Source of the DNA: Mobula hypostoma
Taxonomy: Eukaryota
DNA: 64,000 nt
Direction of reading: 5' to 3'
Assembly (NCBI RefSeq): GCF_963921235.1
Contig: NC_086108.1
Coordinates: forward strand, 64,730,001 to 64,794,000
The notes beneath the pieces are model-generated. The model was not told where the DNA came from and did not search any database. It was given only the letters and a program-made list of their open reading frames with translations. Positions 104 to 59,832 of the stretch are shown here, in pieces. A program made the translations under genes and the position numbers. Numbering within the stretch: position 1 is the stretch's first letter; the number at the start of each line of letters is the position of its first letter.

Positions 104-560
104 ATTATTCCTTCAGGTTCTTTCTGTCTTTCATTAAGAATATTGGATCAGTTTACTGGTTGGTGGATAGTTAGTTTAAGTTTTAATATTTTATCTTCAG
201 TTACTGGAAATGAAATTGTGTAAGTTTCATATGGATCTTTAACACATTTATATTATATTTTCATTTTTAAGGATATGAATATTTCTATTAAATAATTTAC
301 AGGAATGATAGAAATCAATAAATCATCTGAACCATTCTCTTAAAGACTATGTCTTTGTTGCTTGACTAAAATGATCAGCTTACTCATGGGTATCAACCAT
401 CTGACTCTCATTCCATTGAAGTGTAGTTTAACTAAAGCAGAGAGAATTCTGATAGCGCAAACACGAGGAAATCTGCAGATGCTGGAATTTCAAGCAACAC
501 ACATAAAAAAAATATGCTGGTGAACGCAGCAGGCCAGGCAGTATCTATAGGAAGAGGTAC

Positions 561-596
561 AGTCGACGATTCGGGCCGAGACCCTTCGTCAGGACT
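561..596 (-). ncRNA. Minimal hammerhead ribozyme motif, degenerate (GAAA>GAAT)
   Basis: Minus strand reads AGTC CTGACGA AGGGTCTCGGCCC GAATC GTC GACT. Confidence 0.65.
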
Positions 597-912
597 AACT
601 GAAAGAAGAGGTAGTAAGAGATTTGAAAGTGGGAGGGGGAGGGATGGAGCTAAGAGCTGGGCAGTTGATTGGCAAAAGGGATATGAGAGGATCATGGGAC
701 AGGAGGTCTAGGGAGAAAGAAAGGGGGAAGGGGGAAGCCCAGAGGATGGGCCAGGAGTATAGTGAGAGGGACAGAGGGAGAAAAAGGAGAGAGAGGAAAA
801 AAATTAATAATAATAATTAATAAATAACAGATGGGGTACAAAGGGGAGGTGGGGCATTAACGGAAGTTAGAGAAGGCAATGTTCATGCCATCACATTGGA
901 GGCTACCCAGAC

Positions 913-1941
913 CATGCTGAGCTGTTGACTTCATTAACTTTGCCTCCAACTTTCACCCTCCCCTCAAGTTTACCTTGTCCATTTCGGACACCTCCCTCCC
1001 CTTTCTTGATCTTTCTGTCTGTATCTCTGGAGACAGCTTATCTACTGATGTCTTCTATAAGCCTACGGACTCTTACAGCTACCTGGACTATTCCTCTTCT
1101 CACCCTGTCTCTTGTAAAAATGCCATCCCGTTTTCGCAATTCCTCCGTCTCCGCCGCATCTGCTCTTAGGATGAGGCCTTTCATTCCAGGATGAAGGAGA
1201 TGTCCTCCTTTTTTAAAGAAAGGGGCTTCCCTTCCTCCACCATCAACTCTGCTCTCAAACACATCTCTCCCATTTCACACACATCTGCTCTCACCCCATC
1301 CTCCCGCCACCCCACTAGGAATAGGGTTCCCCTTGTCCTCACCTACCACCCCACCAGCCTCCAGGTCCAACATATAATTCTCCGTAACTTCCGCCACCTC
1401 CAATGGGATCCCACCATGAAGCACATCTTTCCCTCCCACCCCCTGCTTTCAGCAGGGATCACTCCCTACGCGACTCCCTTGTCCATTCATCCCCCCCCCT
1501 TCCCTTCCCACCGATCTCCCTCCCAGAACTTACCCTTGTAAGTGGAACAAGTGCTGCATATGCCCTTACACTTCCTCCCTTACCACCATTCAGGGCCCCA
1601 GACAGTCTTTCCAGGTGAGGCGACACTTCACCTGTGAGTCGGCTGGGGTGATGTACTGCGTCCAGTGCTCCCAATGTGGCCTTCTATATATTGGCAAGAC
1701 CCAACACAGGCTGGGAGACTGTTTTGCTGAACACCTATGTTCTGTCCGCCAGAGAAAGCAGGATCTCCCAGTGGCCACAGATTTTAATTCCAATTCCCAT
1801 TCCCATTCTGATATGTCTATCCATGGCCTCCTCTACTGTCAAGATGAAGCCACACTCAGGTTGGGGGAACAACACCTTATATTCCGTCGGGGTAGCCTCC
1901 AACCTGATGGCGTGAACATTGCCTTCTCTAACTTCCGTTAA
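913..1941 (+). pseudogene. PLE ORF 3' part: RT C-terminus/thumb, Cys-rich linker, GIY-YIG endonuclease (disrupted)
   Basis: LPFLDLSV..TDVFYKPTDSYSYLDYSSSHP..QFLRLRRICS; linker TYPCKWNKCCICP; FTCESAGVMYCVQCSQCGLLYIGKTQHRL..FAEHL..GVN. In-frame TAG at 1167-1169 plus frameshifts. The Cys linker suggests the Neptune group (inference). Confidence 0.9.
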
Positions 1942-2198
1942 TGCCCCACTTCCCCTTAATTAATTAATTAATTAATTAATTCCCCCCCCCCCCCCCTCTC
2001 TCTCTCTCTCCTTTTTCTCCCTCTGTCCCTCTCACTATACTCCTTGCCCATCCTCTGGGCTCTCCCCCCCCCTTTCTTTCTCCCTAGGCCTCCCGTCCCA
2101 TGATCCTCTCATATCCCTTTTGCCGATCAACTGTCCAGCTCTTGGGTCCATCCCTCCCCCTCCCACTTTCAAATCTCTTACTATCTCTTCTTTCAGTT

Positions 2199-2234
2199 AG
2201 TCCTGACGAAGGGTCTCAGCCTGAAATGTTGACT
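2199..2234 (+). ncRNA. Minimal hammerhead ribozyme motif, CpG-decayed
   Basis: AGTC CTGACGA AGGGTCTCAGCCT GAAAT GTT GACT. Confidence 0.65.
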
Positions 2235-3694
2235 GTACCTCTTCCTATAGTTGCCTGCTGTATTCACCAGAATTCTGATAGACTAGTTCTTATCCTTCGA
2301 TTTGGAACATTTGGAAGCCATGTGCATTAGATATGTTGTTATGTTTTATTCTGAAACCTCAATGTGAAACCTAGTTTGTGAGGGAAATGTTACGTTGCTT
2401 TTTAGTCTGCAGCTGATAGGCATTAAATTGTCACTAATAACCAACACAGAGCTGTTTGTTACAACATTGAGTCGAGACTTCCAGCACATGGCCTTGCAGT
2501 TTCTTTGGAATTGTACGGAGATTTGCAATCAGCTGGTGTAAATGCTGGAGGCAAATTTCCTGTTTGCAGTATAAAATACAAGTGCAGTACATCCGTCCAA
2601 CCTATAACTGACAGTGCTGTGCACAGAACCTGAAAATCCAAAGCAAACTCAATTGATTCGGGATCACCCTCGCATGAACTGAAAGTGACCTCTGTAAGGG
2701 ATGTTGTATGAACGGGATATGCACTTTTGAATAATGTAAATCTGCTGTCTCGGTTCTTATCTAGCTGTGCCTGGTGTAAACTTGCCACATCCACTGGAGA
2801 TACAAGTGTCAACAGAGTATGATGGTTTTGATATGCCATGCATTGCATTCTGATAATCTGCTCTTGAGATTTGCCATTCAGTTGATCTTGAAATGTACTT
2901 ATTCTAAAAGGGTTAATTGTTTATCCTCATAATGTTGCCCTCACAGGTGTGAACACAGCCATTTGCAGGCTAAGAAAGTGTTGCGGCAAAAATAGATTGC
3001 AAGTTTGTTGGTTAGCTATTAACTGTGACAAGGCTTCTTGTTAGAGAGATTAACCACAAATAACGGATGGGAGCACCTTGTGACTGGTGGCTAACTCATG
3101 CAACAGCAAAAGCCTGTTGGAGATCTGCAAATCAGTGCAGATTGTTTATCTGCCAATTGCCCTGGCTGGGCTACTTTCTCTTGATTCTTGTTTCACTGTT
3201 GTGTCTGGCAGCCTCTTTCGACTGTTTGAACTTCAGCCAGAGGAAAATATTTTGACATAAAGATGTGCATTTTTCGACTGGTCAGGTCTGTGTTGGTGAT
3301 TGTGGGTTTGAGCCAAGGTAGATGTGCCACTTTATAAAAAAAACTCACGAGTGCTGATGGTTTCATATAATAGACAACCTTTTAGCTCTAAATGGCAGAC
3401 AGTCAAAGTGATTCAAATTCACTGTTGCCTTTTTTTAATGTTGAAGTACAGTAATTTTTTGTAATGAGGTCAGTGTTCTCCGTGTCTTTCACCTACTCCT
3501 TTCAACTGAAGCAGATTTTGGAACCTTGACAGCACTCATTTCTGTGTGCTGTGTTGTAATTTGAATTCTGAGAAAATCTGGTTTTACTCAGGTCTGCTAT
3601 ATTTCCCACTCCCCTCCCCGAATCTTGTTTTTTTTTGCAATAAGGTTCAAAAAGTGGCTTTGGGCTCTCTTGATCCATTTTACTGAACTACTAG

Positions 3695-27965: not shown

Positions 27966-28853
27966 AATTAAATATTGCTATTGTGTTTTATATCAACATT
28001 TCCTCAATACATAACCAACTTGTCAAAGTTTCATTCCAGACATTGTTTGTATTGCCGGTTGCTATTGTTGGTCTGTTCTTATGGAGCTTGGAAGAATATC
28101 TAATGCCTATTATGATAGGACCATTCTCACAATGGAGCTTATTGCATCAAAATCTGAATCTTCATTTACTACAAAAACAGACAAATATTCACTTCTTTAA
28201 TATATACAGCCATTAGCTTCAGGCTTTATATAGTCCAGGATAAGTTATTTGCATGAGGGATATTACTACCAATAGACTTAATAAATACTTTCTTTGGAGT
28301 TAACCAGATGGGATTGTGGTATGTATGATCAACGTAATGTGTGAACCTGTAGTTACTGAGATAAACATCAATGCGGTTGTAGAACGACCTTGTCCTCGAA
28401 ATACCTTGTATCAAGCATACCATATTTGCTGACCATTCGCTCAATATCCAGGAATTGTTTTCATCTGGTAATATTGAGGAACCATCCTCATTTAAAAAAA
28501 ACACAAGAGTTGAGAGAGGAAACCTAGCACCAGATGTCAAAAACTGTCCTCAGATTCTGAGAACAACTAATAGTTTCAAAAATAAACAACAAAAATACTG
28601 TAAGACTCAAATGTAAATAAAATGTGATGGTAATTCTCAGCAGACCATGCAGCATCTGAAGAGAGAAAATAACAAAAGGTATACTTTCAGGTTAATAACT
28701 TTTCTGAATTGTTCTTTCCACAGATCTACTTGATGTTATAAGTATTTCCAGCATTGTCTATTTTTAAAAAATCAAATAACAAAACATGAAAAGTGTGCTT
28801 AGAACATTCAAGCAAATAATAGTTTAACTCCTGTGTGTAATGCTTTTACTCAC

Positions 28854-29763
28854 AAAATAATCTGCAGATGCTGGGGTCAAAGCAACAATCACAACATGCT
28901 GGAGGAACTCAGCAGGTCGGGCAGCATCCGTGGAAATGATCAGTTGTCGTTTCAGGCCAGAACCCTTTGTCAGGACTGTAGAGGGAAGGGGCAGAGGCCC
29001 TATAAAGAAGGTGGGGGGAGGGTGGGAAGGAGAAGGCTGGTAGGTTCCAGGTGAAAAACCAGTAAGGGCAAAGATAAAAGGGTGGGGGAAGGGAGGCAGG
29101 GAAGTGATAGGCAGGAAAGGTGAAGAAAGAATGGGGGAAAACACAATGGGTAGTAGAAGGAGGTGGAACCAAGAGGGAGGTGATAGGCAGCTGGGGGAAG
29201 GGGGCAGAGTGACATAGGGATAGGGGAAGGGAGGGGGAAGGAATTACCGGAAGTTGGAGAATTCTGTGTTCATACCAAGGGGTTGGAGACTACCTAGAAG
29301 TATATGGGGTGTTGCTCCTCCCACCTGAGTTTTACCAACCCGAAAACTCAGGTTGGAGGAGCAACACCTCATATACCGTCTAGGTAGTCTTCAGCCCCTT
29401 GGTATAAACACAGAATTCTCCAACTTCCAGTAATTCCCTTCCCCTATCCCTATGTCACCCTGCACCCTGCCCCCTCCCCCAGCTGCCTACCACCTCCCTC
29501 TTGGTTCCGCCTCCTTCTACTACCCATTGTGTTTTCCCCTATTCTTTCTTCACCTTTCCTGCCTATCACCTCCCTGCCTCCCTTCCCCCACCCCTTTATC
29601 TTTCCCCTTACTGGTTTTTCACCTGGAACCTACCAGCCTTCTCCTTCCCACCCTCCCCCCACCTTCTTTATAGGGCCTCTGCCCCTTCCCTCTTCAGTCC
29701 TGATGAAGGGTTCTGGCCCAAAACGTCAACTGATCGTTTCCACGGATGCTGCCCGACCTGCTG
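28854..29763. mobile_element. Near-symmetric fold-back PLE insertion (second subfamily)
   Basis: Paired arms 28910-29333 and 29343-29763 with 9-nt spacer ACCAACCCG. TSD AATGCTTTTA(C/T)TCAC at 28839-28853 and 29764-29778. Arms hold the GIY-YIG C-terminus (LEEQHLIYRLGSLQP), a pyrimidine tract and decayed hammerhead motifs. Confidence 0.92.
29696..29731 (+). ncRNA. Hammerhead motif, degenerate (GAAA>AAAA)
   Basis: AGTC CTGATGA AGGGTTCTGGCCC AAAAC GTC AACT. Confidence 0.5.
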
Positions 29764-30644
29764 AATGCTTTTATTCACTGTCAAAAGTGTGGCAGACAGC
29801 TTTGGAAGTTATGCATATTGAATGGAGGCTAGAGTGGCTCTCTAATATAGTTTTTTTTTCTGTAAGTATGGTCACTGCTCAGGCTCGAAAAATATTGGAT
29901 ACAATAATGTCAACATTTAGAAAATGACAGAACTGTTGAGCCAAGCATTATTGAAACATCAACTTTATCCTAAGCTATATTGGTTTCACTATGGTCAAGC
30001 ACCAAATGAGCTTTTGATCTATTTTAACTTAATAGAATCATAAAATAATATTGTTATGAAGAAGAGGCTATGTTGTCCTCTCAATCCATCCTGGCTCTTT
30101 GGAGAATAGTACTATTACTGCACTTTTAAATCTTTAGTTTGACAACATTTCCCTCAAGTGCATGACCCTCAGAGCACGAATTGGATGGGTACCCAAGCTT
30201 ACAGTTTTAGAAGTGGGTATGTTGTATCAAAACTGTAATGCTTTGTGGCACTTACCTTTAGTGACTCCATTTTACGTATTTTGGGTTTTGTTCCAACTTA
30301 TTGATAATGCATGCATGGAACTTGTTTCAATGATATTGATTGCCTTCAATAGCATTGAACAGAAATCGACTGAGGTTTGTTGCACCAGTTGGGTTTATTA
30401 ACCTCATGGGGAAGTGATTTAAATAATCATGCTCTGGGCCAATTAGAGAACATTTGGCAATTATGAAAGGAATTGTGTAAATCCCAACTACTTCCCTTGG
30501 GAAGAGGGAGGAAATGAAAGTGCAGTCAAACATTGGCTTTCTTGGTTCAGAACACGTGTTTCTATATTAAAGGTTGCCCAGTTACAAATTTCAGGGAGAC
30601 AAAATGTATTTCTACAAACTTGGTGATAAAGTGCTGTTTTCAAG

Positions 30645-38190: not shown

Positions 38191-38238
38191 TAAATTTGTG
38201 GCTATCACCTTCAACAAGAAAATTAACATTGTGGAAGG

Positions 38239-38388
38239 AAGCAACACACACACAATGCTGGAGGAACTCAGCAGGCCAGGCAACATCTATAGAAAACAGT
38301 ACAGTCAACGTTTTGGGCTGACACCCTTTATCAATACTGGAGTTCCTCCAGTGTTTTGTGTGCATCTGAAGATTTTCTCTAGTTTGTG
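38239..38388. mobile_element. Miniature fold-back PLE-end insertion
   Basis: TGGAGGAACTC and GAGTTCCTCCA inverted; 11-bp TSD ATTGTGGAAGG at 38228-38238 and 38389-38399. Confidence 0.75.
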
Positions 38389-38471
38389 ATTGTGGAAGGC
38401 AGATTATCTAGGCAAATGCACCAAAAAGAGTGGTTTGAAAAAGATTTTATTCAAGGGATACTAGCACAAAT

Positions 38472-39199: not shown

Positions 39200-40270
39200 T
39201 GTATGCATAGAAACAGGCGCTTCAGTCCATCTTATCCATGCTGACTCCTTTGACAATCGATGCTGATCCCATTTGCCCAAAATAGGTCTGTATATGTCAA
39301 TTCAGATGTCTGTCTAAATGTCTGTTGGACACAGCAATGGCATTTGACTCAGCCACCTCGTCCGGCAGTGAGTTGCAAAGATCAATCACTTTCTGTGGAG
39401 TGAGAATCTTCAATGATTTCTCTATCTTCCAGTAATTCCCACCCCCACCCCGCTTCTTCCATTCCTCTCTGTGGCTGCCCTCTTCTCTTCTCTTTTCTCC
39501 CCCTCACTTGCCTATCACATACCTCTCTTTTCCTTCCTCCCATGTTCCACTCTCCTTTCCTATCAGGTTCCTTCTTTCCCAGCCCTTTACCTTTTCTACC
39601 TATCACCTCCCAGCGTCTTACTTCCTTCACCCATCTAGTTTGTATTCCTCCCCCCCTCTACTTTCTTATTATGTCTTCTTCCATCTTCCTTTCAGTCCCG
39701 ATTAAGGGTCTCCACCCAAAACATCAACTGTCCATTCATTTCCATAGATGTGGCCTGATCTGCTGAGTTCTTGCCGCATTTTGTATGTATTACCTCTCAC
39801 CTTGAACTGATTTTTTTTCTCTTATGATGCAGCAACCAGAACTACCTCAGCCACAGTTTAATCAGTGTTTTGTAAAGTTGCAATAAAACGTCCCAACTTT
39901 TATATTCTATATTCTGACTTAGAAATTTGAGTGTTCCACATCCTTTCTTCACCACTCTATCTACCTATGTTGCCACTTACAGGGAAGTATGAAACCGAAG
40001 ATCCCTCTGTTTATCAAAATCTCTCAGCATCCTACCATTTACTCTAGATGTCCTTCCCCTATTTGATGTCCCAAAATGCATCACCTTGCACTTGTTGGGA
40101 TTCAATTCCATCTCCAATGTTTATCCATCTTTCTATCTGATCGATATCTTGCCTCAGGCATCCATCCTTGCTATCCATAGAGCTATTGAATTTTGTGTTG
40201 TCCTCAAATGTATGAATCATATATCCTACATTCACATCCAGTTTGTTGACGTATCTCACAAGTAACAGGA
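39200..40270 (-). mobile_element. Old CR1 3' half, interrupted by a PLE end
   Basis: Inverse tail CATAGAAACAGGCGCTTCAGTCC; minus ORF YVNKLDVNVGYMIHTFEDNTK (FADDTK-like). Confidence 0.6.
39400..39790 (+). mobile_element. Old PLE 3' end with decayed hammerhead motif
   Basis: Pyrimidine tract, then CAGTCCCGATTAAGGGTCTCCACCCAAAACATCAACTG..TGCTGAGTTC. Confidence 0.7.
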
Positions 40271-41488
40271 ACAAAAATGGGTGACGGGGGACTGGGAGGA
40301 GACGATGGGAAGGGGATTGTAATACTGGCTATCATTCCCCTGTACTCTGTCCTGATGCAAGTCTTGACCCGAAACATCAACAATCCTTTCCCACTACAGA
40401 TACTGCTTAATGTGATGATTTCCTCCAGCAGATTTTTTTATATTACTGAACTCTTACTAACTCTCTTTTAAAAGACTCCCCCCTGCCATCTGTCATTTTA
40501 ATGTAGGAATCTGCTCCCAATCTATTTTCATCAGCTCCTCATATTATATCAAAATTATCCTTACACCTGTTCAAGACCTTAACTTGAGGACCAACATTAT
40601 TTCTTTCCATAATAATGGTCAGGGTTCCTAAAGTGTCGTCTTCCCCCCCGTCCCAGTGATACTTTCATTACTTGACCAATTACATTACCTAAAATGACTA
40701 CTATCTCTAGTAGAACTCCACACATTGTCCCAAAAGACTTTCTTAGACACACCTAACAAATCCTTCCTCATCTTGGTCGCTTTCACTAAAGCAATCTCAG
40801 TCAATATTGGGACAATAACAACAACGCCCCCCCCCCCAATCCCCAACTACTATAATGCTTTCACTCTTTGGCTTACATGTTCATTCCTCTGATTCCCAGT
40901 GACTGTTGGGAGGGTGAAAGTATAACTCCAGCAAAGTAGTCATTACTCTCATTCCTTACTTCTACCCATATGGTCCATTAGATGATTTCCCAAGGATTGT
41001 GAGTTTGTTGAGAATAATTTTCAACACATTATCCTGGAACCAAGAGATAGAATAAATTAGATTTGATTATGAGGAAAAAGACAGACTTAGTTAATAACTT
41101 AATGATGTGCAAATATTTATTTAATACACTTCATATTACACTCTAACCATATGATTTAGGAGAGGAGTAGGCCATTTGACTACCCAAGCCTACCCTACAA
41201 TTTATAAGATCAAGGCTGATCTGATTACTACATTCCTGCTTACAATGGTAATCTATAAATTCCTTTCTGATTGTGAATCTACCTATGCTTTAAAACATTC
41301 AGTCTGCTTCCACAGCCCTGAAAAGAGTTTCAACCTTTTATTTCTCATTAGTGACCACTTAGTTCTGAATTTCCAAAAAGAGAAAACATCTGCTCCCAGT
41401 AAACATCATCAGGGTCAATCAGGATTTTATGTATTTCAAATTAATGCCGCTTGTTCTTTTAAACTCTAAATGGATACAAGTCCAGTCT

Positions 41489-41715
41489 CACACATCAAAG
41501 TTGCTGGTGAACGCAGCAGGCCAGGCAGCATCTCTAGGAAGAGGTGCAGTCGACGTTTCAGGCCGAGACCCTGACGAGTCAGGACGAAGGGTCTCGGCCT
41601 GAAACGTCGACTGCACCTCTTCCTAGAGATACTGCCTGGCCTGCTGTGTTCACCAGCAGCTTTGATGTGTGTTGCTTGAATTTCCAGCATCTGCAGAATT
41701 CCTGTTGTTTGCATT
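41489..41715. mobile_element. Miniature fold-back PLE-end insertion (84-bp arms)
   Basis: Arms 41489-41572 and 41588-41671 with 3 mismatches, 15-nt loop, 44-nt unpaired tail. TSD TACAAGTCCAG(T/C)CT at 41475-41488 and 41716-41729. Confidence 0.93.
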
Positions 41716-41751
41716 TACAAGTCCAGCCTGTTGAACATTTCCTCAGAGTAT

Positions 41752-42300: not shown

Positions 42301-43650
42301 TAGTAACCCTCGTCTAAAGTGCTTCCAGAGCATTTATATCCTTCCTCAATAAGGAAACCAAGACTATATGCAACACTCCAGAATGTAATCACATCAATAC
42401 CCTACAAAGGAACTGTATCCTTTCTTTGTTTGCATTCATCTCCCCATCAATAAATTCTGCCTATTTACCTAATTGTTTGCTGTGCCTGTATACTCAACTT
42501 CTGCAAATCATGCATCAGCATAACCAGATCCATTTGCATCTTGGGGCACCGTAATATTTCACCATTTAAATAGGCTTTTAAAAAATTTCTCCTCCCATCA
42601 TAAATAACTTCACATTTTTCCTAGAATATTCTCCATTAGCTCACCTGCATATTTGATCTATATGCCTTTGTAGCCTCTCTATATCCTCTTCACAACTTGC
42701 ATTCATGCCCATCTTTGTGTCATTAGCAAATGTAGCAATATTATCTTCAGAGTTTTATTTCAAAATCATTGAGGTGATTGAGGTTATAGTTTTTGAAAGA
42801 CAGAACCATAGATTCTGGGATTCTAGGCTAAAATGAATTTCAATTTAATGAAGTAGAAATATCCAAAGTAAATTGGAAAAAATCTGTTGATTGATAAAAT
42901 ATCATGGACCCTGGTGGCAGGTAATTTAAAAAGCTTATTTATTGTGATCTTTACCATTTGTATTTGTTGAACCAGAGTAAACAAAAATTTAATGCCCAAA
43001 ATGCAAAAATTACAGCAAACTGTGGCAACCAGTAGAGATATGAACACAACAAATATGATTAAAATTGTGCAGCTGCAAAAGAGAACATGAAAATAATATT
43101 ATAAGGCATGCCAAAAGAAACATTTTTCACATGAGCAAAATAACAGAAAACCCTAGAAACTTTTTACATGTTAGAAAAAAAAAGGGTGATCAAGAGCAAT
43201 GTGGGCTCAGTGGAAAGCTATAGTAGTAAGTTCGTAAATGAAAATATGGGAGTAGATATGTTGGTCAATTACCTTGAATTGGTATTTAAGTACAGGAGAA
43301 TAGATTGTCAGATATGCCAACAAAACAGAAGTGAGTTTTTCAGCAAGTAAAATATGATGAAAATAACAACATCAAAGTAACAAATCCCTTGTGCCAAAGT
43401 AATTTCTCTCCAAGGTTAAAGCATATTGGTTAGGATGTTGTAGATCCTCCTACTATAACCTCCACAGTTATCTCAACTTGTGCAGATCTCTCTGCTAAAT
43501 AAGTAAGGTGTTTCAGAGAACAAGCAAATCATACAACCAAAAGAAATACAGTATAGAAACAAGAGCTTCATCCACCCGATCCAGACTGTCAAGCACCATT
43601 TTTACACTAATTTTGTCTTAACCCATTTTATTCTCCCCATATTCCCATCA

Positions 43651-46410: not shown

Positions 46411-46498
46411 ATTGTGGATGATCAGCTGTGATCACAGTGAATGGCGGTGCTGGCTTGAAGGGCCAAATGGCCTACTCCTGCACGTATTGTCTATTGTC
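43651..46498 (+). mobile_element. Young CR1 LINE, near-complete ORF2 plus 3' UTR
   Basis: Starts at SIRNKVDEL; ends in TATTGTC x2; flanked by TCAA (43648-43651 and 46497-46500). Confidence 0.96.
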
Positions 46499-47134
46499 AA
46501 TTCCTCCAAGATTCTACTTCTCATCCGTACACCAGGAGCAGTTTGTAGTGGGTAATCAGAGCGAACCGGATGGATTTGTAAAAGGAATGTCTTACTGGAC
46601 AAGCCTGCTTGAAATTTTGAAGATGTGCTTAAAATAATGGAAAGGCAATGATATAGAGTATCAGGAAGTTTCATATCCCATCAGAAACATTTAGTTAAAT
46701 TGGAAGCTAACTAATATTGACAAATTGTTGTCTTGGCTAAGAAGTTAGCTGAGTAGCAGGAAATAAAAATTGGAGGTAATGTCAGTAAGTGACCAGTGGT
46801 ACTTATAAGGTGCTGGGGTCTCAGTTATTTATTAGCAATGTAAATTACAGTTTTGAATGACATATATGGAGCAATACAAATCAAGGCAGTATTGTTGATG
46901 GAAGCATAGCATTACAGATAGATATTTATAGATTAGATGATTGGACAGAACTATAGCAAATTATCTCATAATGAGGAAACTTTGGCTATTCATCTGCATA
47001 AAAATGTAGAGTATTTTTTTAAAATTGAAAAACAAAAAGCTACAATCAGGAGAGGTCCTAAGAAGCCTAGTTGTCCATTAATATGAGCTGTGTCTTCCTA
47101 CACAGAAGGCCAATAGTAGAAGGAAGTAATATTA

Positions 47135-47664
47135 TAAAGTACTGGTGAGGCTCACTTGGAGTATCGTGAGCAGTTTTGGCCCCCTTATCAGAAAGGATGT
47201 GCTGAAACTGAAGAGAGTTCAAAGGAGGTTTATGAAAACCACTCAAGGATTGTATGACTTGTCGCAGAAAGAGGGCTCGATGGCTCTGGGCCTGTATTCA
47301 TTAGGATGAGGGGTGACTTCATTGAATCCCACCGAATGGTGAAAGGCCTTGATTGAGTGGATGTAGAGAGGATATTTCCTATGGTGGAAGAGTCTAAGAT
47401 CAGGAGGACACAGGCTCAAGATAGAAGGGCATCCTTTTAGAATGGAGATGAGGAGGAATTTCTTTAGCCAGAATGGTGAATCTGTGGAATTCTTTCCCAC
47501 AGGCAGCTGTGGAGGCCAAGTCTTTTATGTATATTTAAGGCAGAGGTTGATAGATTCTTGATTGGTCAGAGCATGAGAACATATGGGGAGAAGTCAGGAG
47601 ATTGGGGCTGGCAGACTCAATGGGCCAAATGACCTAATTCTGCTTCTATATCTTATGGTCTTAT
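47135..47664 (+). mobile_element. CR1 3' fragment
   Basis: YKVLVR..HLEYREQFW..ERVQRRF-like sequence; tail TCTTATGGTCTTAT. Confidence 0.85.
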
Positions 47665-48646
47665 TATGTAGAAACCTTTGGAAAGCTCTGGAAAATATGG
47701 AGTATTATAAGAGTTGCTAGCACTGCACCCTGGCAAGAATGTACTATCCTTTTAGGGAGTACAGTATGCATTTACCAGCATGATATCTAGACTGCTGAGG
47801 GTTATTATGAGAAATTACATAAATCAGAGTTGTGTTTCCTGTAATTTTGAAAGCTAAGGCGTAATTTGTTTTCTGCTTTCAAAATCTTTGTTTTCCTTGA
47901 GACTTAATATAATTAATAATAATGTTGGTGGTGATTGCAATATGAGTGTTGTATGTTATTTGAAAATTTCCAGTTTTATACTCCTGTACAAAAATCCAGA
48001 AAGGATGCAGCATTGAATGTAGATGACAGGGACAGTGATATGGCGATTTACGGTGCGGCAAAAAGAACTATGTAGAATATGGTGATTTCCAGACAGGATA
48101 GAGAAAGTGCAGATTCTGGGGTGCTGTGAGTGAATTTGATTTGACAAATAAGTCTCATTTCTAGCGGATACAAATTTATGTTTCTTCTTATCATGTTTTT
48201 TAAGTAAGTAAATTACGAGCCCCTATTTTTACACGTAGACAGGATAGCTATGACAAAATTAGGAGCTAAATTTTCATGCCTTCACTGTATCCTGATGGTT
48301 GAGGCCTTATAAAGGGATCATGTCTCTGGGCAGATACATTATCCTTCTATCCTTTGTGTGAACCTTTTAGAGCTTATTTCAAAACAAGTCAGAGTTCTTT
48401 GAATTAATTCAGTGCCTCGACTGTTCTATCTAACTTTTGGTGGTCAAATTTTGGCAGGAAAAATAATCAGTAAATCTAATTAAACAGAAAGACGCATTAA
48501 TGCCACAGGCTCTTACAGTATTATATCAGTGGCAATCTGTCTAAAGTATTTATAGGATTGTATATGTTCATATTAAATCAGTTATTTTTGATGATTACTT
48601 TTTTATTATTTCTTATAGATTTTAAAAATGCTTTTAAGTTGTCACT

Positions 48647-49865
48647 ATGACCATAAGATATAGGAGCAGAATTAGACTATTCAGCCCATCATATCTGTTG
48701 CACCAATTCATCATGGCCGATTGATTTCCCTCTCAACCCCTGTATCCTTCCACGCCTTGAGTTATCAAGACTCTCTCAGCCTCCACTGTAAATACACCCA
48801 ATGACCTGGCCTCCACAGCTGCCTGTGGCAATGAATTCCACAGATTCTTCACCCTCTGGCTAAAGAAATTCCTCCTTATTTCTGTTCTAAGTGGATGTCC
48901 TTCTATTCTGAGGTTGTACCATCTGATCGTCGACTCTCCCACCATAGGAAAGATTTTCTCCATGTTCACTCTATCTAGTCCTTTCAACGTTTGATAGGTC
49001 TCCTTGAGATCCCTCTCATTTTTCAAAATTCCAGCAAATACAGGCTCAGAGCCAACATACGCTCCTCATATGACAAGCTCTTCATTCCCAGAATCATTTT
49101 TGTGAACCTCCTTTGAATCTTCTCCAATGTCAGCACATCCTTTCTAAGATAAGGGGCTCAAAACTGCTCACAATACTTCAAGTGAGGCCTCATCAATGCC
49201 TTATAAAGTCTCAGCATTACATCCTTGTCTTTATATTCTGGTTCCCTTGTTATGAATGCTAACATTGCATTTGCCTTCCTCCTCACCAACTCATCCTGCA
49301 AGTTAATCTTTAGGGAATCCTGCATGAGGACTCCCAAGTCCCTTTGCACCTTGAATTTTTGGATTTTCTTCCTGTTTAGAAGATAGTCTACACTTTTATT
49401 CCTTCTACAAAAGTGCATGACCAAACACTTCCCAATACTGTATTCCATTTTCCACTGCTTTACCCATTCTTCAAATCTGTCATAGGCTTTCTGTAACATC
49501 CTTGCTTCCTCAGCACTGCCCACCCTTCCACCTAAGTCTGTATCATCCGCAAATTTGGTCATGAAACCGTCATTTCCATCATCCAAATCATTGACATACA
49601 ATGTAAAAAGAAGCAGTCCCAACACAGACCCCTGTGGAACACCACTAGTCACTGGCAGCCAATCAGAAAAGGCTCCTTTTTATTCCCACACTTTCCTCCT
49701 ACCAATCAGCCCATGCTGTATCCATGCTCGTAGCTTTCCTGTTATACCATGGTCTCTCAGCTTACTAAGAAGCTTCATGTGCAGCACCTTGTCAAAGGCC
49801 TTCTGAAAATCCAAGTAAGCAACATCCACCGATTCTTCTTTGTCCACCCTGCTTGTTATTTCCTC
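48647..49865 (-). mobile_element. CR1 LINE, 5'-truncated
   Basis: TSGVPQGSVLG..YVNDLD..KFADDT..LYKALMRPHLKYCEQF; inverse tail GACCATAAGATATAGGAGCAGAA. Confidence 0.92.
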
Positions 49866-50221
49866 ATTAATATAGTTTATGAATCTAAAATTGTTCTTAC
49901 TAACTTTGACATTACAGAAAGAAAAAAAATACTTTTTGGGCTTTTGGTCCTGCTTAAGTGATGTCCATAAGTCAGTTGAAAGATGCTTAATGTTTTATTG
50001 GCTCACACGTACAAAATGCTGGAGGAACTCAGCAAGTCTGGCAGCATCTATGGAGGGGAATAAACAATCGAAGTTCCAGGCTGAGTCTCTTCATTAATAC
50101 AGGAAAGGAAGGGAACAGGAGGAAGAATAAAAAGGTGGGTTAGGGGAAGGAGTTGAAGTTGGCAGATAATAGATGAGACTAGGTGAGGGGGAAGATGCGT
50201 CCGTAGATGAGGTCTTCTAGG

Positions 50222-51112
<891 letters not shown>

Positions 51113-53856
51113 AGGGGATGAAGTAAAAAAAATAGGTGGAGCGGAAGAGATAAAGACCTGAAGAAGGAGGAATCTGGTCGGAAGAAAGGGAAGGAAGAGT
51201 GGAACCAACGGGAGGTGAATGGACAGGTGAGAAGAAGAGTAGGTGACTAGAATGTGGAATGGAAAAAGAAAGATGGGGGGGTGGTGGTAGAAATTAATGT
51301 TCAAGCCATCAGGTTGGAGGCTACCCAGGCAGTATATAAGGTGTTGCCTCATCATGGCATTAGAGAAGACTATGGACAAACATCTCAGAATAGGAATGGG
51401 AAGTCAAATTGAAATGGGTGCCTATTGGTATATCCTGCCTGTTGCGGCAGACAGAGCAAGAAGTCTCAATAAAAATAAAACAGTCCCTTAATCTGTGTCC
51501 AGTCTCATTTATGTAGAGGAGGCCTCAACGACCCGAAACATTGACCATTTATTCTCCTCCATAAATGCTGCCTGACTTGCTGAGTTCCTGCAGCATCTTG
51601 TGTGTGTTGCTTAAGATTTCCAGCATCTGCAGAGTCTCTTGTATTTATGATTCGCTGCATTGGATCTGCCAGTTTTTACTTAAGTATTATTCATGGCTGC
51701 CTCTGATCGAATACATGTTTAGTGCTCTCACCCACCTCACTAATCCCCGCTAAGAGAATGGGCAAATGCCAGGTGTACTCTATCCTAGATCCAAAATATT
51801 CACTGGTCAACCACCAACAGTTGGCACAATTTTTAAAGCAAATTTAAGTACCAGAAGGAAATATTGTCTGGTCGGTCAGCAGTATAAATTCTACAATATT
51901 CCAAGTTATCAGCAGCCACCACTTCCCTCCTTGGGACCTCAGCCTCTCCTCCATTTTCCTGGGATATTCCTGCAAATGGGCCAGCTGCCTGTAATAGCAC
52001 TAAAGAAATGAACAGCTCGACCATTTATTACTAATGAGGCTCTTGCTCACTTTGGATCAAATTCAAATCTTTTACTTCTCAGTCAGTGCAATATTGAAGA
52101 TTTGCTGTCATGGTGTGATACACCAAACTTCAGTCACAGCATCACTGTTGACTACCCACTTGGTTTTGCCAATCTTTAAAGATTTATCATCACTGCTTTG
52201 AAGAGGCAAACAACTTTTCCTGGTGCCGTGACCTACTTTTATTCTCAAAATGCACAATCAACTTCATGTTGTTTGTGGGAACATTGAGGCTACCTATAAA
52301 GATATTCTTATTTAATTTGTATGAATTAACATGTTTTTTTCTGAGTGATGTGCTAAGATCATTGATAATGGAGGTAATTGATTTATTGAAATATAAACTC
52401 GACTTATTTTCATTTTTTCCCTATATTTGTTTTACAAAGAATCACTCTTCCATTTCTCTACTGTAGCTGTTGTCTTCAATTTTTTTTGTATTTATAAACT
52501 TTCAATTATTTCCTGGAAAACCAACTAATATATTTAAAATTGAGTGAATCTTAAATAAGGTACTAATGGAAACCGTATTGAGTAGGATTGCACAGTCATT
52601 TCATTCATTTTTATATTTTAAAGCAAACAGCACAGGTTTGAAGATGTGCTGGGGCGTAGGTATCGTAACTCAGTGTCTAAAAATAAATGCAAGATGATGG
52701 CGTACAGTTAAGCTACATTCCTTGTTTGCAAATCAAGCTGCATGGCAATTTTGTGCAGGTTACCTATTAGAATCATTACATTGTCTAGCCAATGCTAAGT
52801 ATGGTATTGATTAGCTGAGGAATCAGCAAAGACAAACACCATGAGTAGCTCACCCCAGTGAAAGCTTGTGTGCTATTGCTAAAAACTGGTTTGTATCTCA
52901 TAGTTAGGACATGTCTTGTGGTTGGAGGTGATACATGTTATACTGAATGTTATAACTGAATCTAATATAGGAAATACGGAAGAGTTGCATAATGTGAGAA
53001 AATGAGAGACTCACGGATTTTTGATATTACTTTGGAAGCCTTGGTAGAGCAATAGAAAGTAAAAGAAGTGATTATTTGCAGGACCAGGACAGTGTCCAGA
53101 TTCATTCAAAAGACACCTGGATTCAGAGCTGTAAGATCAATGCCCTGATGGTGCTCAGATATGGCAGTGCACAATTTGCAATAGCCTCATATGAGAAGTC
53201 AAAGTTGATGAATATTTTTTGAATACATCTATGTTCTACCAGTTTCACATCCAATCTTGCTAAATGTACCTCATTCCATTTGTCAAGTTTCATATCTAAC
53301 ATTAATACTCTCTGCTGCACACTTAGACATTCAGGACAGGAACACATACCCACATTTCGTAGTTTTCACATACTGTTGGCTATTCAAGCAGGCATAGCAG
53401 AGATAGCATATACTGTGATACACCCCTGTCTCTTGGAGAGCAAGCAAGAGCTAATTTGAGGGGAAACGTGTGCTTATCCCTATGGAGTAGATGGAGCGAT
53501 GCATGCAACATTTCTATGGCCTGCTGTGGAGCTAAATCAATTGCAGGTGGTGGTGGTTAACTAATCCTCACCTTCACGTTCTACTACCACCTTTCCCCAT
53601 AGCCTTGTCTGGTTCATATCCAGCAGATACGACAAGCCAAAACCCCCCACAACAATTTCACCAGTCTATCTTGTTCCTTTCGAACCAAGAAGTTCAGCTT
53701 GTCGAGAAAATAAAGGAATAGCAAGGAGGACTGTGATGATGAAGATACAGCAGTACTTAAACAACAGGAATTCTGCAGATGCTGGAAATTCAAGCAACAC
53801 ACATCAAAGTTGCTGGTGAACGCAGCAGGCCAGGCAGCATCTGTAGGAAGAGGTAC

Positions 53857-53892
53857 AGTCGACGTTTCAGGCCGAGACCCTTCGTCAGGACT
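53857..53892 (-). ncRNA. Minimal type I hammerhead ribozyme motif, core intact
   Basis: Minus strand reads AGTC CTGACGA AGGGTCTCGGCCT GAAAC GTC GACT. Confidence 0.8.
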
Positions 53893-54184
53893 AACTGAAG
53901 GAAGAGTTAGTAAGAGATTTGTAAGTGGGGGGGGGGGGAGATCAAAAATGATAGGAGAAGACAGGAGGGGGAGGGATGGAGCCGAGAGCTGGACAGGTGA
54001 TTGGCAAAGGGGATATGAGAGGATCATGGGACAGGAGGTCCAGGGAGAAAGACAAGGGAGGGCGGGAACACAGAGGATGGGCAAGGGGTATAGTCAGAGG
54101 GACAGAGGGAGAAAAAGGAGAGTGAGAGAAAGAATATGTGTATAAAAATAAATAACGGATGGGGTACGAGGGGGAGGTGGGGCA

Positions 54185-54720
54185 TTAGCGGAAGTTAGAG
54201 AAGTGGATGTTCATGCCATCAGGTTGCAGGCTACCCAGACGGATTATAAGGTGTTGTTCCTCCAACCTGAGTGTGGCTTCATCTTTACAGTAGAGGAGGC
54301 CGTGGATAGACATGTCTGAATGGGAATGGGATGTGGAATTAAAATGTGTGGCCACTGGGAGATCCTGCTTTCTCTGGCGGACAGAGCGTAGGTGTTCAGC
54401 AAAGTGGTCTCCCAGTCTGCGTCGGGTCTGGCCAATATATAGAAGGCCACATCGGGAGCACCGGACGCAGTATATCACCCCAGCCGACTCACAGGTGAAG
54501 TGTCGCCTCACCTGGAAGGACTGTCTGGGGCCCTGAATGGTGGTAAGGGAGGAAGTGTAAGGGCATGTGTAGCACTTGTTCCGCTTACAAGGGTAAGTGC
54601 CAGGAGGGAGATCAGTGGGGAAGGATGGGGGGGTTGAAAGGACAAGGGAGTCGCGTAGGGGGTGATCCCTGCGGAAAGCTGGGGGGGGGAGGGAAAGATG
54701 TGCTTAGTGGTGGGATCCCG
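54185..54720 (-). pseudogene. PLE GIY-YIG endonuclease domain, 5'-truncated
   Basis: GTYPCKRNKCYTCP linker; FTCESAGVIYCVRCSRCGLLYIGQTRRRLGDHFAEHL..LEEQHLI..GMN. Confidence 0.92.
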
Positions 54721-55234
54721 TTGCTGAACACCTACGGTCTGTCTGCCAGAGAAAGCAGGATCTCCCAGTGGCCACACATTTTAATTCCACATCCCATTCC
54801 CATTCCGACATGTCTATCCACAACCTCCTCTACTGTAAAGATGAAGCCACACTCAGGTTGGAAGAACAACACCTTATATTCCGTCTGAGTAGCCTCCAAC
54901 CTGATGGCATGAACATCGACTTCTCTAACTTCCGCTAATGCCCCACCTCCCCCTCGTACCCCATCCGTTATTTATTTTTATACACACATTCTTTCTCTCA
55001 CTCTCCTTTTTCCTCCCTCTGTCCCTCTGACTATACCCCTTGCCCATCCTCTGGGTTCCCCCCTTCCCTTGTCTTTCTCCCTGGACTTCCTGTCCCATGA
55101 TCCCCTCATATTCCCTTTGCCAATCACCTGTCCAGCTCTTGGCTCCATCCCTCCTCCTCCTGTCTTCTCCTATCATTTTGGATCTCCCCTTCCCCCTCCC
55201 ACTTTCAAATCTCTTACTAACTCTTCCTTCAGTT

Positions 55235-55270
55235 AGTCCTGACGAAGGGTCTCGGCCTGAAACGTCGACT
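55235..55270 (+). ncRNA. Minimal type I hammerhead ribozyme motif, core intact
   Basis: Stem I AGTC/GACT; CTGACGA 55239-55245; stem II AGG/CCT; GAAA 55259-55262; palindromic ACGT stem III; GTC cleavage triplet 55264-55266. Confidence 0.8.
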
Positions 55271-56486
55271 GTACCTCTTCCTAGAGATGCTGCCTGGCCT
55301 GCTGCATTCACCAGCAACTTTGATGACAGCAGTACTTAACTCTGGTACTGATCTTAGAGGACATTTTAGAATGTAACAAAATGGCAAGATGTTCATGAGG
55401 CACACGTAGTAGGGTATTCTCATCATAATGGACTAGAAATTCACCCTGTGTGTTAAGGAACATAAGACGTACTTTCCTGATGGGCTGAATGTCTTTTACA
55501 CTTGGTTTGATGCACAGAACAATGAGTTGTCAAAGAAGCCCATAGGTTATTTTAGGTTGCTAGCATTGTGGTAGTTGCCTTGCTCTGAGGGTTCCATTGT
55601 GATTGTAGATTTCAAAGATAATTTCACTGAAACCAATCCTCTTTCAAGAAAGGATTTCTCATGCATTTTATTCCAAAAGACTTGTAGCTTAAAGACATAT
55701 CCAGAGTGTGAATACCCTCATAAAATTCAAGCAAAATTTAGAAACAGCCTGTTAGTAATTGTGGATGCCTTTACACAATACTGATGTAAATGGAGGATGC
55801 AGAAAGAAAGAAAACAAAGAAGGAGAAAAATTGCTGGAAATCTAAAACAAACAAAAATGTTGCAAAATATCTCAGCATCGATGAAGAGCGGAAAACTGAG
55901 TTAATCTTGTAGGTTGATATGATAATTCATTGGAAACTGGTCTATTTTGATTCAATCTTGGAAGGCTGGCTATCTGAAATATTTGCCTACTCAGGAGCTG
56001 CAATATTGTTCTTCATGCTTATGTTTGGCTTCATTGGAACAGTGAAAGAAGCCAATGATATAACTCAATGTGGATATGGGATAGAAAATTCTAAAGGGTC
56101 TTTTTCTTCCATGACTTTTTCCCAGCTCATGGCATCTTCCCGCTAAGCTATTGGGAGTACTACAGCTACCCAATTCTTGCTCACCAAATACTTGACCCAA
56201 GTGAACCAGGCCTTCACTTGTACTTCTTCCAATTTAGTGTGATATGTTCAATGCTCATAATGTGGTCTCCTCCCTTAAAGGAGGAAGCAAATACTCTTTG
56301 CTAATCTCTTTATAGTTTAGTCTGCAAGAATGAAGCTTAGGTTCTGGTTTGCCTAGCATTTAACTTCACCATTCCATTCCCATTTTGACCACTCTGTCTT
56401 TGGTCTCTTACACTCTTTGAGTGATTATGCAGAAAGTTTGAAGTTAATAACTTTTGTGGTATTTCTGTTTCAGATAATTGAAAATT

Positions 56487-56549
56487 GCTAGGTTTTCTAA
56501 AATTGACTCCCTTCACCTTAGGCCACGAACTTATCAATCACCCCTGGTA
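56487..56549 (-). mobile_element. Solo mariner-like terminus
   Basis: Minus strand TA-CCAGGGGTGATTGATAAGTTCGTGGCCTAAGG resembles mariner TA-CGAGGGG ends; no partner end found. Confidence 0.5.
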
Positions 56550-56646
56550 TGTCACAACCAATTTGTGTACCTGCTCATTTCATGTACTGGGCAACTGCCT
56601 TGCCCCATTCATGTAATCAGCAGGTACACAAATTGGGTGTGATATA
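56548..56646. repeat. 99-bp hairpin, MITE-like
   Basis: 47-bp arms TATGTCACAACCAATTTGTGTACCTGCT.. and ..AGCAGGTACACAAATTGGGTGTGATATA with 5-nt loop CTGCC; TA at both ends. Confidence 0.85.
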
Positions 56647-56650
56647 TATA

Positions 56651-58271
56651 TCGTAGCTTGTAAAGGTAATTTCTCCAAACTTCCCCTTTTCAACTGCCTC
56701 TTGAGCTTCTAGCGTTTTTGTACCAGGTTGCTCTCTCAGTCCATGCAGTGATCTTATGCTCTATTGGATCAGCTGGTCTGCATAAACAATCGTAGTAGTG
56801 TGTTTCTGTAAACACTCTGACAATAAACCAAGTTCATGCAACATGTCATACATTAGAGCTAAGTCCAATAGAAACTGTTCTGAAGAGAGTCTTTTCAACA
56901 GACCTTCATAGGTTTTTCTGTCACTCCCAGATCTTGTTTCATCCTTCATTGCTTTTTCAAAATGAAAACACAGTGTTTCATAATTTTGCCACACTGCTGA
57001 AACTGTTCGAAACAAGCTAGCTACCCACCTGGTGCCCAGACACGGCCTATTTTGCAAATCTCTTGTTCTCGTTGAGAGGCACATTCAGACAGTTCCTTTT
57101 GATTTAGAGGTGATCTACTGTAAACAGAGTAAAATTTGTCCGTAAATGATTGAAAATGATTTATTCCATGAGCTTCTGTCACCAAATCACCTACTGCAAA
57201 TTCTAACCTGTGGTTAAGACAGTGCCAAATTATCACATCAGGGTAATGTTCTTTGAGAATTGTAGCAACACCAGATTTGACACCAAGCATTAAACTCACC
57301 CCATCACTAGCAAATGCTACAAGGTTCTGTTTCAAGTAAGAGTCATCAAACCCATGGTTATTGAGACATTTCAATAGATGCTTAGCAATAGTTGCAGCTT
57401 TCTGATCAGTCAGTTCAATTAGATTTAAAAACATAAAATGGGGATCATCTTCCTTATCACTCTCACATTTCAAATAAACTTTTGGGCGGTCTTAATGCTC
57501 AGGCTTGTTGATTCATCAACGAGAACAGAAAATTTGCCATTTATCTGCTTGATATGCTGGAAAATTTTCTTTTTCATATTAATGGCTATGTGATTAATTA
57601 TCTCTGTAGCACTAGTCTGGGAATACAGTACAATTCCAATGTCAATACCGTTAATTTTTTGAAGTTCCAATATGCCAATGTGATCAGAGTACGGTCTGTC
57701 ATTCTGACCTAAATAATATGCAGAACGAAAAATTGAACAGGTTGCCTTTAGATGCGAAGCATTCATGGTGTCACATAATTTTCCAAGAGCATCTTCACTA
57801 GCCTTATTTTCAACACATAGAGCAGCAGTGTAAGATTTTGGTAGTTTGTGATCAACATTTTTTTTCTGAGAGACTTCAAGCATGTAGTTTGATCGGCTCC
57901 ATAATAGGATACTTGGTACATCTGCCATTCATTTGACAGCCTCAGACCTCAGTGAAAAGTGTCAGATTGCTTTTGTTTGCAGTTGCACATACTTTACACC
58001 CAAGTTTATCATCCTTGAAGTCTAACCAGGGATAAGTTTCCTTCTTCCACATTTCTTCAGTCCAAGCATCTGAACAGGGATACAAGCCTGACTTCGAAGG
58101 ACCATTACTTTCAGAACTACATTTGGATCCGGTTAGAAAATTTGAACTAGAAGCAGGCGAAACACAGCTTTTGTCACTTTTACTGTTATCAGTCTCTTGT
58201 ACGTTATGCTTGTTACACCCCTCAGCTTGTTTACGACAGAAAGAAGTTAGCATTATTTGCTTAGAAGCCAT
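56651..58271 (-). pseudogene. hAT transposase (KIAA1586/ZNF862-like), frameshifted
   Basis: YPWL..LGCKVC (TTF-type Zn finger), FSVLVDEST (D1), AFASDG (D2), WHCLNHRL (CxxH), GTRW. C-terminal E and dimerisation domain missing. Confidence 0.9.
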
Positions 58272-59714: not shown

Positions 59715-59832
59715 AGTTTCAAGCTTTGCCTAGTTATGCTGAAAGGTCACCAGTCTGAAGTGTTTAACATTTTTTTCTCCACAGATGCTGCTTGGCCTTT
59801 TGGGAATATCTGGCATTTTCAGTTTTGTTTCT
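59715..59832 (+). mobile_element. Very old PLE 3' end
   Basis: ATGCTGAAAGGTCACCAGTCTGAAGTGTTTAAC..CCACAGATGCTGCTTGGCC resembles the hammerhead region and tail. Confidence 0.45.

What the first reader, a model, noticed from the sequence alone, without database searches (positions are those of the whole stretch)
53747..55339. Fold-back Penelope-like insertions as a recurring architecture, with a hammerhead motif on each strand
Seen: one 14-bp TSD brackets two PLE 3' ends in opposite orientation, both pointing outward and joined at a TTG microhomology (54721-54723). The same design recurs at 456, 28854, 38239, 41489 and 50004, in at least two subfamilies of different ages. Known: PLEs often form inverted or partial-tandem structures and carry hammerheads. 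Inference: each event had both nicked target strands prime reverse transcription (twin-priming-like), so hairpin insertions are the normal product here. The locus would encode a ribozyme motif whichever strand is read.
Basis: partly seen in the sequence, partly recalled or inferred. Interest (0 to 1): 0.72.

Follow-up and report, generated by a model that had tools for sequence, protein, structure and literature searches.

The report
Double-primed head-to-head Penelope insertion
This is a real insertion, in what is likely ray DNA, of two back-to-back truncated copies of a Penelope-type jumping gene inside one 14-base target duplication; the layout is already described, but its ends suggest that both cut DNA strands likely started copying the element's RNA at two different start points, which would explain a long-unexplained shape of these elements.

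Summary
Two 5'-truncated arms (963 and 605 nt, 95% identical) of a Neptune-type Penelope-like element (PLE) point outward inside one exact 14-bp duplication and meet at TTG. A related species has the empty site with one copy of the 14-mer; another has both outer junctions. The central junction was not bridged by any listed contig (inconclusive). Six of 11 PLE loci in the window are such pairs; five have 13-15-bp duplications; 50004 has none. In 6 of 6 pairs exactly one arm carries the ~41-nt tail.

The layout, the one-sided tail and hammerheads on opposite strands are in print (PMC3846280, PMC8557442, PMC4209133). PMC11167929 shows a PLE protein extending both strands from two start sites that bracket the tail. 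Joining these gives my reading (65%): both 3' overhangs of a ~14-nt staggered cut prime reverse transcription, one at each start site. I did not find that synthesis in print. The published self-priming idea fits worse but is not excluded. The two hammerheads are a by-product; cores are intact only at this locus. This scan already reported the same in at least 23 genomes.

The parts
53747..53760 (.). Target-site duplication, left copy (14 bp)
   Evidence: Exact repeat; single copy at the empty site in run X12, record 10
53761..53801 (-). PLE 3' 'tail', 41 nt, on this arm only; its last two bases may be shared with the duplication (53759-53760)
   Evidence: Alignment of arms; 458 contigs of X1 and 468 of X5 leave the element at 53759 (table 7)
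53761..54723 (-). Left arm: 963-nt 5'-truncated PLE copy (linker, GIY-YIG endonuclease end, 3' UTR, hammerhead, tail)
   Evidence: 90% protein identity to P0001
53856..53893 (-). Minimal type I hammerhead motif of the left arm
   Evidence: Pattern scan and fold; no Rfam match
54185..54703 (-). Open frame of 172 aa: CX4CxxC linker, GIY-YIG domain with CCHH-type cysteines, stop
   Evidence: Pfam GIY-YIG E=0.0014, 19.3 bits, below the 22.6 cut-off
54721..54723 (.). Central junction, TTG shared by both arms
   Evidence: not bridged by any listed contig (inconclusive)
54721..55325 (+). Right arm: 605-nt 5'-truncated copy of the same 3' end, without tail
55234..55271 (+). Minimal type I hammerhead motif of the right arm (predicted cut after 55266)
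55326..55339 (.). Target-site duplication, right copy
   Evidence: junction crossed by contigs of X1 and X5 (records 8 and 31)
443..2281 (.). Head-to-head pair, 13-bp duplication; tailed left arm 456-912 (-), tail-less right arm 913-2268 (+) reaching into the RT C-terminal region
28839..29778 (.). Head-to-head pair of another family, 15-bp duplication (1 mismatch); tail on left arm
38228..38402 (.). Short head-to-head pair, duplication 11 exact or 14 with 1 mismatch; tail (with internal deletion) on the 50-nt right arm
41475..41729 (.). Short head-to-head pair of the same subfamily as the main locus, 14-bp duplication (1 mismatch); tail on right arm
50004..51649 (.). Old head-to-head pair, left arm interrupted, tail on right arm, no convincing duplication

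Best explanation
This is a single insertion of a Neptune-type Penelope-like retrotransposon, two truncated copies of its 3' end joined head to head inside one 14-bp duplication, and it was likely made by double priming: the element's nuclease would cut the two DNA strands about 14 bases apart and each free 3' end would prime its own reverse transcription. Shown: the anatomy, the duplication, the empty site, and one tailed plus one tail-less arm in every pair. Inferred: (1) the stagger leaves two 3' overhangs; (2) one overhang starts at the distal RT start site and gives the tailed arm, the other at the proximal site about 41 nt upstream and gives the tail-less arm; (3) both cDNAs stop early and their 3' ends are joined, here through TTG, and gaps are filled by host repair. 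The strict one-tailed, one-tail-less pairing is more easily explained by one RNA read twice by a dimer (about 0.4; the second RT would have to displace the first cDNA) than by two RNAs (about 0.25). The hammerheads are carried along with the 3' end and are likely inactive here.
For: Empty site with one 14-mer and no loss in organism C: record 10 of run X12 joins 53746 to 55326. Both outer junctions in contigs of organisms A and B (records 1, 8, 24, 31). Arm divergence 4.0% lies between A-B (1.9%) and A-C (4.8%) flank divergence, as expected if the arms were identical at insertion. Arms group by locus: 13 sites against 1 and 1 in the four-arm test with locus 456. An element 3' end abuts each copy of the duplication in 5 of 6 pairs, lengths 13-15 bp. 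3' ends fall into two classes: tail-less ends 27-35 nt past a fixed anchor in 7 of 9 arms, tailed ends 62-77 nt in the 5 tailed arms where the anchor was found. One of each class in 6 of 6 pairs; independent choice would give this at most 1.6% of the time (3.1% for the 5 with duplications). The tailed arm reaches less far 5' in 4 of 6 pairs (456, 38239, 50004 clearly; 28854 by about 6 nt). PMC11167929 (main text, parts 1-3 of 4): the anole Poseidon protein cleaves and extends both strands, starts RT at two sites that bracket the tail, and is predicted to dimerise.
Against: No intermediate was observed; all mechanism is inference from end products. The biochemistry is from a Poseidon element, this one is Neptune-type. 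The central junction was not bridged in any listed piece of 4 runs (the tool warns that a hole proves nothing). Two tail-less ends (456R, 28854R) lie 13-29 nt upstream of the main cluster, so the proximal start is not sharp or ends were trimmed. The arms of locus 456 are only 85% identical to each other and 86-89% to the arms of 53747, and the right arm has 32 private changes against 14, which a single RNA does not explain well. Five of 11 loci are single ends, and locus 50004 has no duplication. The sample is six pairs from one window; no genome was available. Microhomology at the centre is predicted by the rival too.
Confidence: 0.65

Rival explanations
1. Self-priming fold-back (proposed in PMC3846280): one strand (cDNA, or an antisense RNA) folds back at the 5' truncation point, copies itself into a hairpin, and the hairpin is integrated, with the nuclease trimming the tail from one end.
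For: Arms group by locus; TTG microhomology; near-symmetric centre at 28854; it is the published proposal (passages), and PMC8557442 ascribes the tail to nuclease resolution (passages).
Against: The copied arm cannot hold bases its template lacks, yet the arm reaching less far 5' carries the tail in 4 of 6 pairs; rescue needs later trimming of the template arm. PMC11167929 maps the tail boundaries to RT start sites. A 13-15-bp duplication touching both 3' ends is what priming at both target ends gives.
Confidence: 0.22
2. Two independent insertions at one spot, or a tandem insertion whose upstream copy was later inverted.
For: The family is very abundant (172,377 contigs of run X1 laid on 3.7 kb). 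Arms of locus 456 are unevenly diverged.
Against: One duplication outside, none at the centre; organism C lacks both arms and organism B has both ends; the design repeats six times in 64 kb with the same polarity.
Confidence: 0.05
3. Assembly artefact: the palindrome or its centre was mis-joined.
For: No listed contig bridges the central junction.
Against: The arms differ at 24 of 601 sites plus indels; both outward-pointing ends are in read-derived contigs of two species. A low-depth link between very deep repeat nodes is what contig cleaning tends to drop (my knowledge, not tested).
Confidence: 0.03
4. A selected bidirectional ribozyme cassette: the inversion is kept because it cleaves transcripts from either strand.
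For: Both cores at the main locus are undamaged.
Against: This is a young locus; cores are damaged or missing in all arms of the five other pairs. G10.1-U11.1 instead of G-C. All 38 bases pair with the other arm in the predicted fold of either strand. Single minimal motifs showed no cleavage in PMC4209133 (passage).
Confidence: 0.03

Closest known systems
Insertions of endonuclease-positive Penelope-like elements with an inverted 5'-truncated copy and a one-sided 30-40-bp tail (Adineta vaga Pen2a/Pen2, PMC3846280; general scheme, PMC8557442 Fig. 2 legend; D. virilis Penelope, PMC2377424)
   Same: Head-to-head inverted copies inside one duplication, tail at one end only, hammerhead in the terminal repeat.
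   Different: Duplications here are 13-15 bp (8-10 bp in the A. vaga examples read); no full-length copy or partial tandem in the window; both arms at the main locus run into the endonuclease coding region.
Poseidon element of the green anole, PAc, in vitro (PMC11167929)
   Same: Two classes of 3' end separated by the tail; hammerhead upstream of them; C-terminal GIY-YIG.
   Different: Other clade (no CX2-5CxxC linker in Poseidon); the parts read do not link both-strand extension to inverted insertions and leave second-strand steps open.
L1 twin priming and dual priming (described in PMC2837659; the original twin-priming paper was not read)
   Same: Both target strands prime RT; two inverted pieces inside one duplication; junction at the centre.
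   Different: Twin priming gives two different segments of one RNA with an internal deletion; here both arms copy the same 3' end, which resembles the hypothetical two-RNA dual priming or needs strand displacement. In L1 it is described as a variant, here it is the commonest product seen.
Minimal hammerheads of metazoan PLEs (PMC4209133)
   Same: Core, unpaired base before stem II, no stem III, 5-bp stem I; the paper already reports pairs about 100-700 bp apart on opposite strands in Schistosoma (section 5).
   Different: G10.1-U11.1 rather than G-C; the two motifs are about 1340 bp apart.

Membership tests
Endonuclease-positive PLE | [quoted passage not shown] | tested here: met
   Frame 54185-54703 shows it; Pfam GIY-YIG E=0.0014 but below the curated cut-off
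Endonuclease-positive PLE | Telomerase-like RT in the same ORF upstream | tested here: inconclusive
   No full-length copy in the window. Arm 456R matches P0001 residues 32-375 and P0009 residues 200-537; P0009 has only a weak RVT_1 hit, E=0.0053. RT core not analysed.
Endonuclease-positive PLE | Hammerhead motif in the terminal repeat | tested here: met
Endonuclease-positive PLE | Optional 30-40-bp tail at one end; inverted 5'-truncated copy | tested here: met
   41 nt at the main locus; 6 of 6 pairs
Endonuclease-positive PLE | Partial tandems forming pseudo-LTRs | tested here: inconclusive
   None in the window; 3 of 22 printed joints from other copies go back, as a tandem would
Neptune clade | CX2-5CxxC linker between RT and endonuclease (shared with Nematis, absent in Poseidon; PMC8557442) | tested here: met
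   CX4CxxC in the frame and in P0001, P0009
Neptune clade | Placement by RT phylogeny | not tested
   No tree was built; Neptune rather than Nematis is my inference
Minimal hammerhead | Core CUGANGA / GAAA / UH with stems I and II | tested here: met
   No substitution in either arm; stem I of 5 bp and stem II form in the isolated fold. Rfam gave no hammerhead match up to E=1
Minimal hammerhead | G10.1-C11.1 pair | tested here: not met
   Stem II closes with G-U in both arms
Minimal hammerhead | Self-cleavage | not testable with these tools
   Needs an assay
L1-type twin priming product | Two inverted pieces inside one duplication | tested here: met
L1-type twin priming product | The pieces are different segments of the RNA, with an internal deletion | tested here: not met
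   The arms overlap over 605 nt
Fold-back DNA transposon or MITE | Terminal inverted repeats starting symmetrically at both ends, no retroelement coding sequence | tested here: not met
   Ends differ by 41 nt and the arms are PLE coding and 3' sequence

The most novel reading that the evidence does not exclude
Double priming is the standard integration route of these PLEs: a dimer cuts both strands about 14 bp apart and copies one RNA twice, from the two start sites that bracket the tail, so that a second RNA-templated cDNA takes the place of second-strand synthesis. This single rule would account for the inverted copy, the one-sided tail and the narrow duplication length.
Probability: 0.4. 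Interest if true: 0.7.

Novelty: new member of a known kind. Interest (0 to 1): 0.42.

Why it matters
PMC8557442 calls the origin of PLE tandem/inverted structures undefined, and PMC11167929 leaves the steps after first priming unvalidated. Ray genomes hold very many copies with readable ends, so the one-tailed, one-tail-less rule and the 13-15-bp stagger turn that open question into a count and a gel experiment. If true, it is a retrotransposon integration route distinct from the L1/R2 second-strand step, in the closest relatives of telomerase. The locus itself is probably neutral debris, though a read-through transcript would form about 600 bp of double-stranded RNA.

Tried and rejected
No genome was held, so no genome-wide census. 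Pattern scans of metagenome and viral contigs found 0 loci. Rfam: no hammerhead match; the two mir-297 matches are a TA/TG microsatellite. Central junction: no listed piece bridges it in X1, X5, X12 or X9 (32 of about 9,870 pieces shown; inconclusive). Expression: no RNA holder listed on record; not evidence either way. A special fold of the 3' end: energies no better than shuffles, z -0.7 to +0.7 in 5 tailed arms. Shared A-to-G editing in both arms (lead from e1-10280452): 4 of 60 sites where both 53747 arms differ from 456R are A>G, no excess, but the comparison is unpolarised and not a real test. Pile-up of 5' ends near the hammerhead start (lead from e1-8609298, e1-8623200): 9 of 13 head-to-head joints start within -21 to +15 or at +48 of 55234 (8 within -21 to +15) and several short arms end there, but this is also where homology between subfamilies ends, and neither arm of the main locus ends there. 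The fuzzy tail match for 39411 is a false positive (its end lies 35 nt past the anchor) and was counted as tail-less. Duplications at the single ends and at 50004: none convincing. Literature: searches returned no paper that explains PLE inversions by priming at both strands; the library lacks most subscription papers, including the 2005-2006 PLE reviews. The three supplements of PMC11167929 held as text had none of four search terms; its figures were not seen and may bear on nick spacing.
Full report
What is there. The sequence 53747-55339 holds an exact 14-bp direct repeat at both ends, found only twice in the window. Between the copies lie a minus-strand arm of 963 nt (53761-54723) and a plus-strand arm of 605 nt (54721-55325). 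They are 95.4% identical, with 24 substitutions in 601 columns. Each arm's 3' end touches one copy of the repeat; the 5' truncation points meet at TTG, exactly 3 nt of overlap when each arm is compared with a longer homologue. The left arm has 41 nt more at its 3' end.

What element. The left arm encodes 172 aa with a CX4CxxC linker and a GIY-YIG domain with cysteines between its two motifs (Pfam E=0.0014, below cut-off). PMC8557442 (passages) gives the linker as the mark of Neptune and Nematis PLEs. The nearest of 13 protein hits are from the rays Mobula hypostoma (90%) and Hypanus sabinus (82%), so the host is likely a myliobatiform ray (inference). No RT tree was built and no full-length copy lies in the window.

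Is it one real event. No genome was held, so I laid contigs of four public runs on 52700-56400. In organism C one 963-nt contig runs from 52979 to 53746 and continues at 55326 with no base lost or added: an empty site with one copy of the 14-mer. In organisms A and B contigs cross both outer junctions (to 53782 and 53780; from 55298 and 55299). Run X1 may be the source of the window, so B is the independent support. Flank divergence is 1.9% (A-B) and 4.8% (A-C), and the arm-to-arm 4.0% lies between, as expected for arms identical at insertion. Against: a second laying on the 71 bases round the centre showed no bridging piece in X1, X5, X12 or X9; only 32 pieces were shown and the tool states that a hole proves nothing, so the TTG joint rests on the window's assembly alone.

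Recurrence. A profile of the 3' ends finds 17 ends at E<0.01, in 11 loci: six head-to-head pairs and five single ends; one fainter pair was left out. Five of the six pairs have duplications of 13, 15, 14 (11 exact), 14 and 14 bp; 31 of 2000 random window pairs give a match of 11 nt or more. Locus 50004 has none and is interrupted. At least two families are involved: 28854 is about 55% identical to 53747 over the 3' UTR, 41489 is 92-98%. Among joints from other genomic copies printed, 13 of 22 distinct ones are head-to-head, 6 are deletions and 3 go back (one 'opposite strands' row counted as head-to-head). These are the best supported of more than 1,800, not a random sample, and several have unknown letters between the sides.

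The tail rule. 3' ends fall in two classes. Seven of nine tail-less arms end 27-35 nt past a fixed anchor (two end earlier); five tailed arms end at 62-77 nt and a sixth has an internal deletion. The distal end is sharp in other copies too: 458 contigs of X1 and 468 of X5 leave the element at 53759. All six pairs have one arm of each class; independent choice gives at most 1.6%. The tailed arm reaches further 5' at 53747 and 41489, less far at 456, 38239, 50004 and marginally 28854. In a four-arm test with locus 456, 13 sites group arms by locus against 1 and 1, though the 456 arms are unevenly diverged (85% identity; 32 against 14 private changes).

Mechanism. PMC11167929 (main text parts 1-3 of 4; figures not seen; supplements searched without hits) reports that the anole Poseidon protein cleaves and extends both target strands, starts RT at two internal sites whose spacing is the tail, is predicted to dimerise, and does not need hammerhead cleavage. 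Applied here (inference): a cut with 14-nt 3' overhangs, each overhang priming one cDNA, one from each start site, both stopping early and joined at the centre. This gives the duplication, the polarity, the one-sided tail and its indifference to arm length. I put it at 0.65, split about 0.4 for one RNA read twice and 0.25 for two RNAs. Self-priming, proposed in PMC3846280 (passages), also gives head-to-head arms with microhomology, but needs the template arm trimmed afterwards in 4 of 6 pairs; 0.22. Independent insertions and assembly error are unlikely for the reasons above. This is not L1 twin priming, which yields two different segments with an internal deletion; it is closer to the 'dual priming' speculated in PMC2837659 (passages).

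The hammerheads. Both arms carry a minimal type I core with no substitution; Rfam finds none. Stem II closes with G-U, not the conserved G-C. In the predicted fold of either whole strand all 38 bases pair with the other arm. Cores are damaged or cut off in every arm of the other five pairs. PMC4209133 (passages and section 5) found these motifs in Neptune and other fish PLEs, saw no cleavage by a single motif, and already noted pairs on opposite strands. A motif on each strand is therefore a by-product.

Novelty. The layout is known: inverted repeat plus one-sided tail inside one duplication in PMC3846280, the general scheme in PMC8557442 and PMC8969392 (passages), inverted termini as frequent in D. 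virilis in PMC2377424 (passages). My searches found no paper explaining it by priming at both strands, within a library that lacks most subscription papers; PMC3649969 gave only a reference line. The scan's own notes hold 100 findings with these words in at least 23 genomes, eight of which were shown and reach the same reading; I had stated mine before seeing them, and they are not independent proof. One note places a nearby copy in an NFIA intron (not checked). What this locus adds is an empty site, a date bracket and a six-for-six tail count. Verdict: a new member of a known kind; interest 0.42, for making an open mechanistic question directly testable.

Noticed in passing
window 13503-13590: Faint, old, very short head-to-head PLE remnant (profile E 0.22 and 0.15), no clear duplication; left out of the count of 11 loci.
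   Followed up: partly
window 55832-55863 (-) and 56198-56467 (+): Degenerate pieces of an older PLE family: a weak 3'-end match (E=0.014) and an endonuclease-like piece (34% identity, E=1.5e-5), in head-to-head order; perhaps a decayed pair.
   Followed up: partly
window 24675-24737, 39411-39794, 40340-40445: The three clearest single PLE ends are all tail-less and lack a duplication; two more (28636-28665, 59727-59798) are too decayed to class.
   Followed up: partly
window 41565-41590: The centre of this pair switches strand more than once within the 5' part of the hammerhead, breaking the core.
   Followed up: partly
window 913-2268: Right arm of locus 456 has 32 private changes against 14 in the left arm and a TTAA run in its 3' UTR; unexplained.
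   Followed up: partly
window 56548-56646: Imperfect palindrome (81%) with no PLE match; origin unknown.
   Followed up: no
window 50200-51180: About 1 kb insert with a long TA/TG microsatellite inside the left arm of locus 50004.
   Followed up: no
window 43507-49846 and 5539-6612: LINE fragments on both strands: endonuclease (Pfam Exo_endo_phos, E=1.4e-11) and RT (RVT_1, E=2.3e-10).
   Followed up: partly
window 8378-9037 (-): Transposase-like frame (Pfam DDE_3 weak, E=0.022; its JmjC hit is likely spurious); Tc1-like by recall.
   Followed up: partly
window 57021-57928 (-): Two broken frames that look like a hAT-type transposase (label recalled; no Pfam hit).
   Followed up: partly
proteins P0003, P0004, P0010: Ray gene models named mucin-2, divergent protein kinase domain 1C and chitinase domain-containing 1 contain this PLE's endonuclease region: annotation artefacts or exonised copies.
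   Followed up: no
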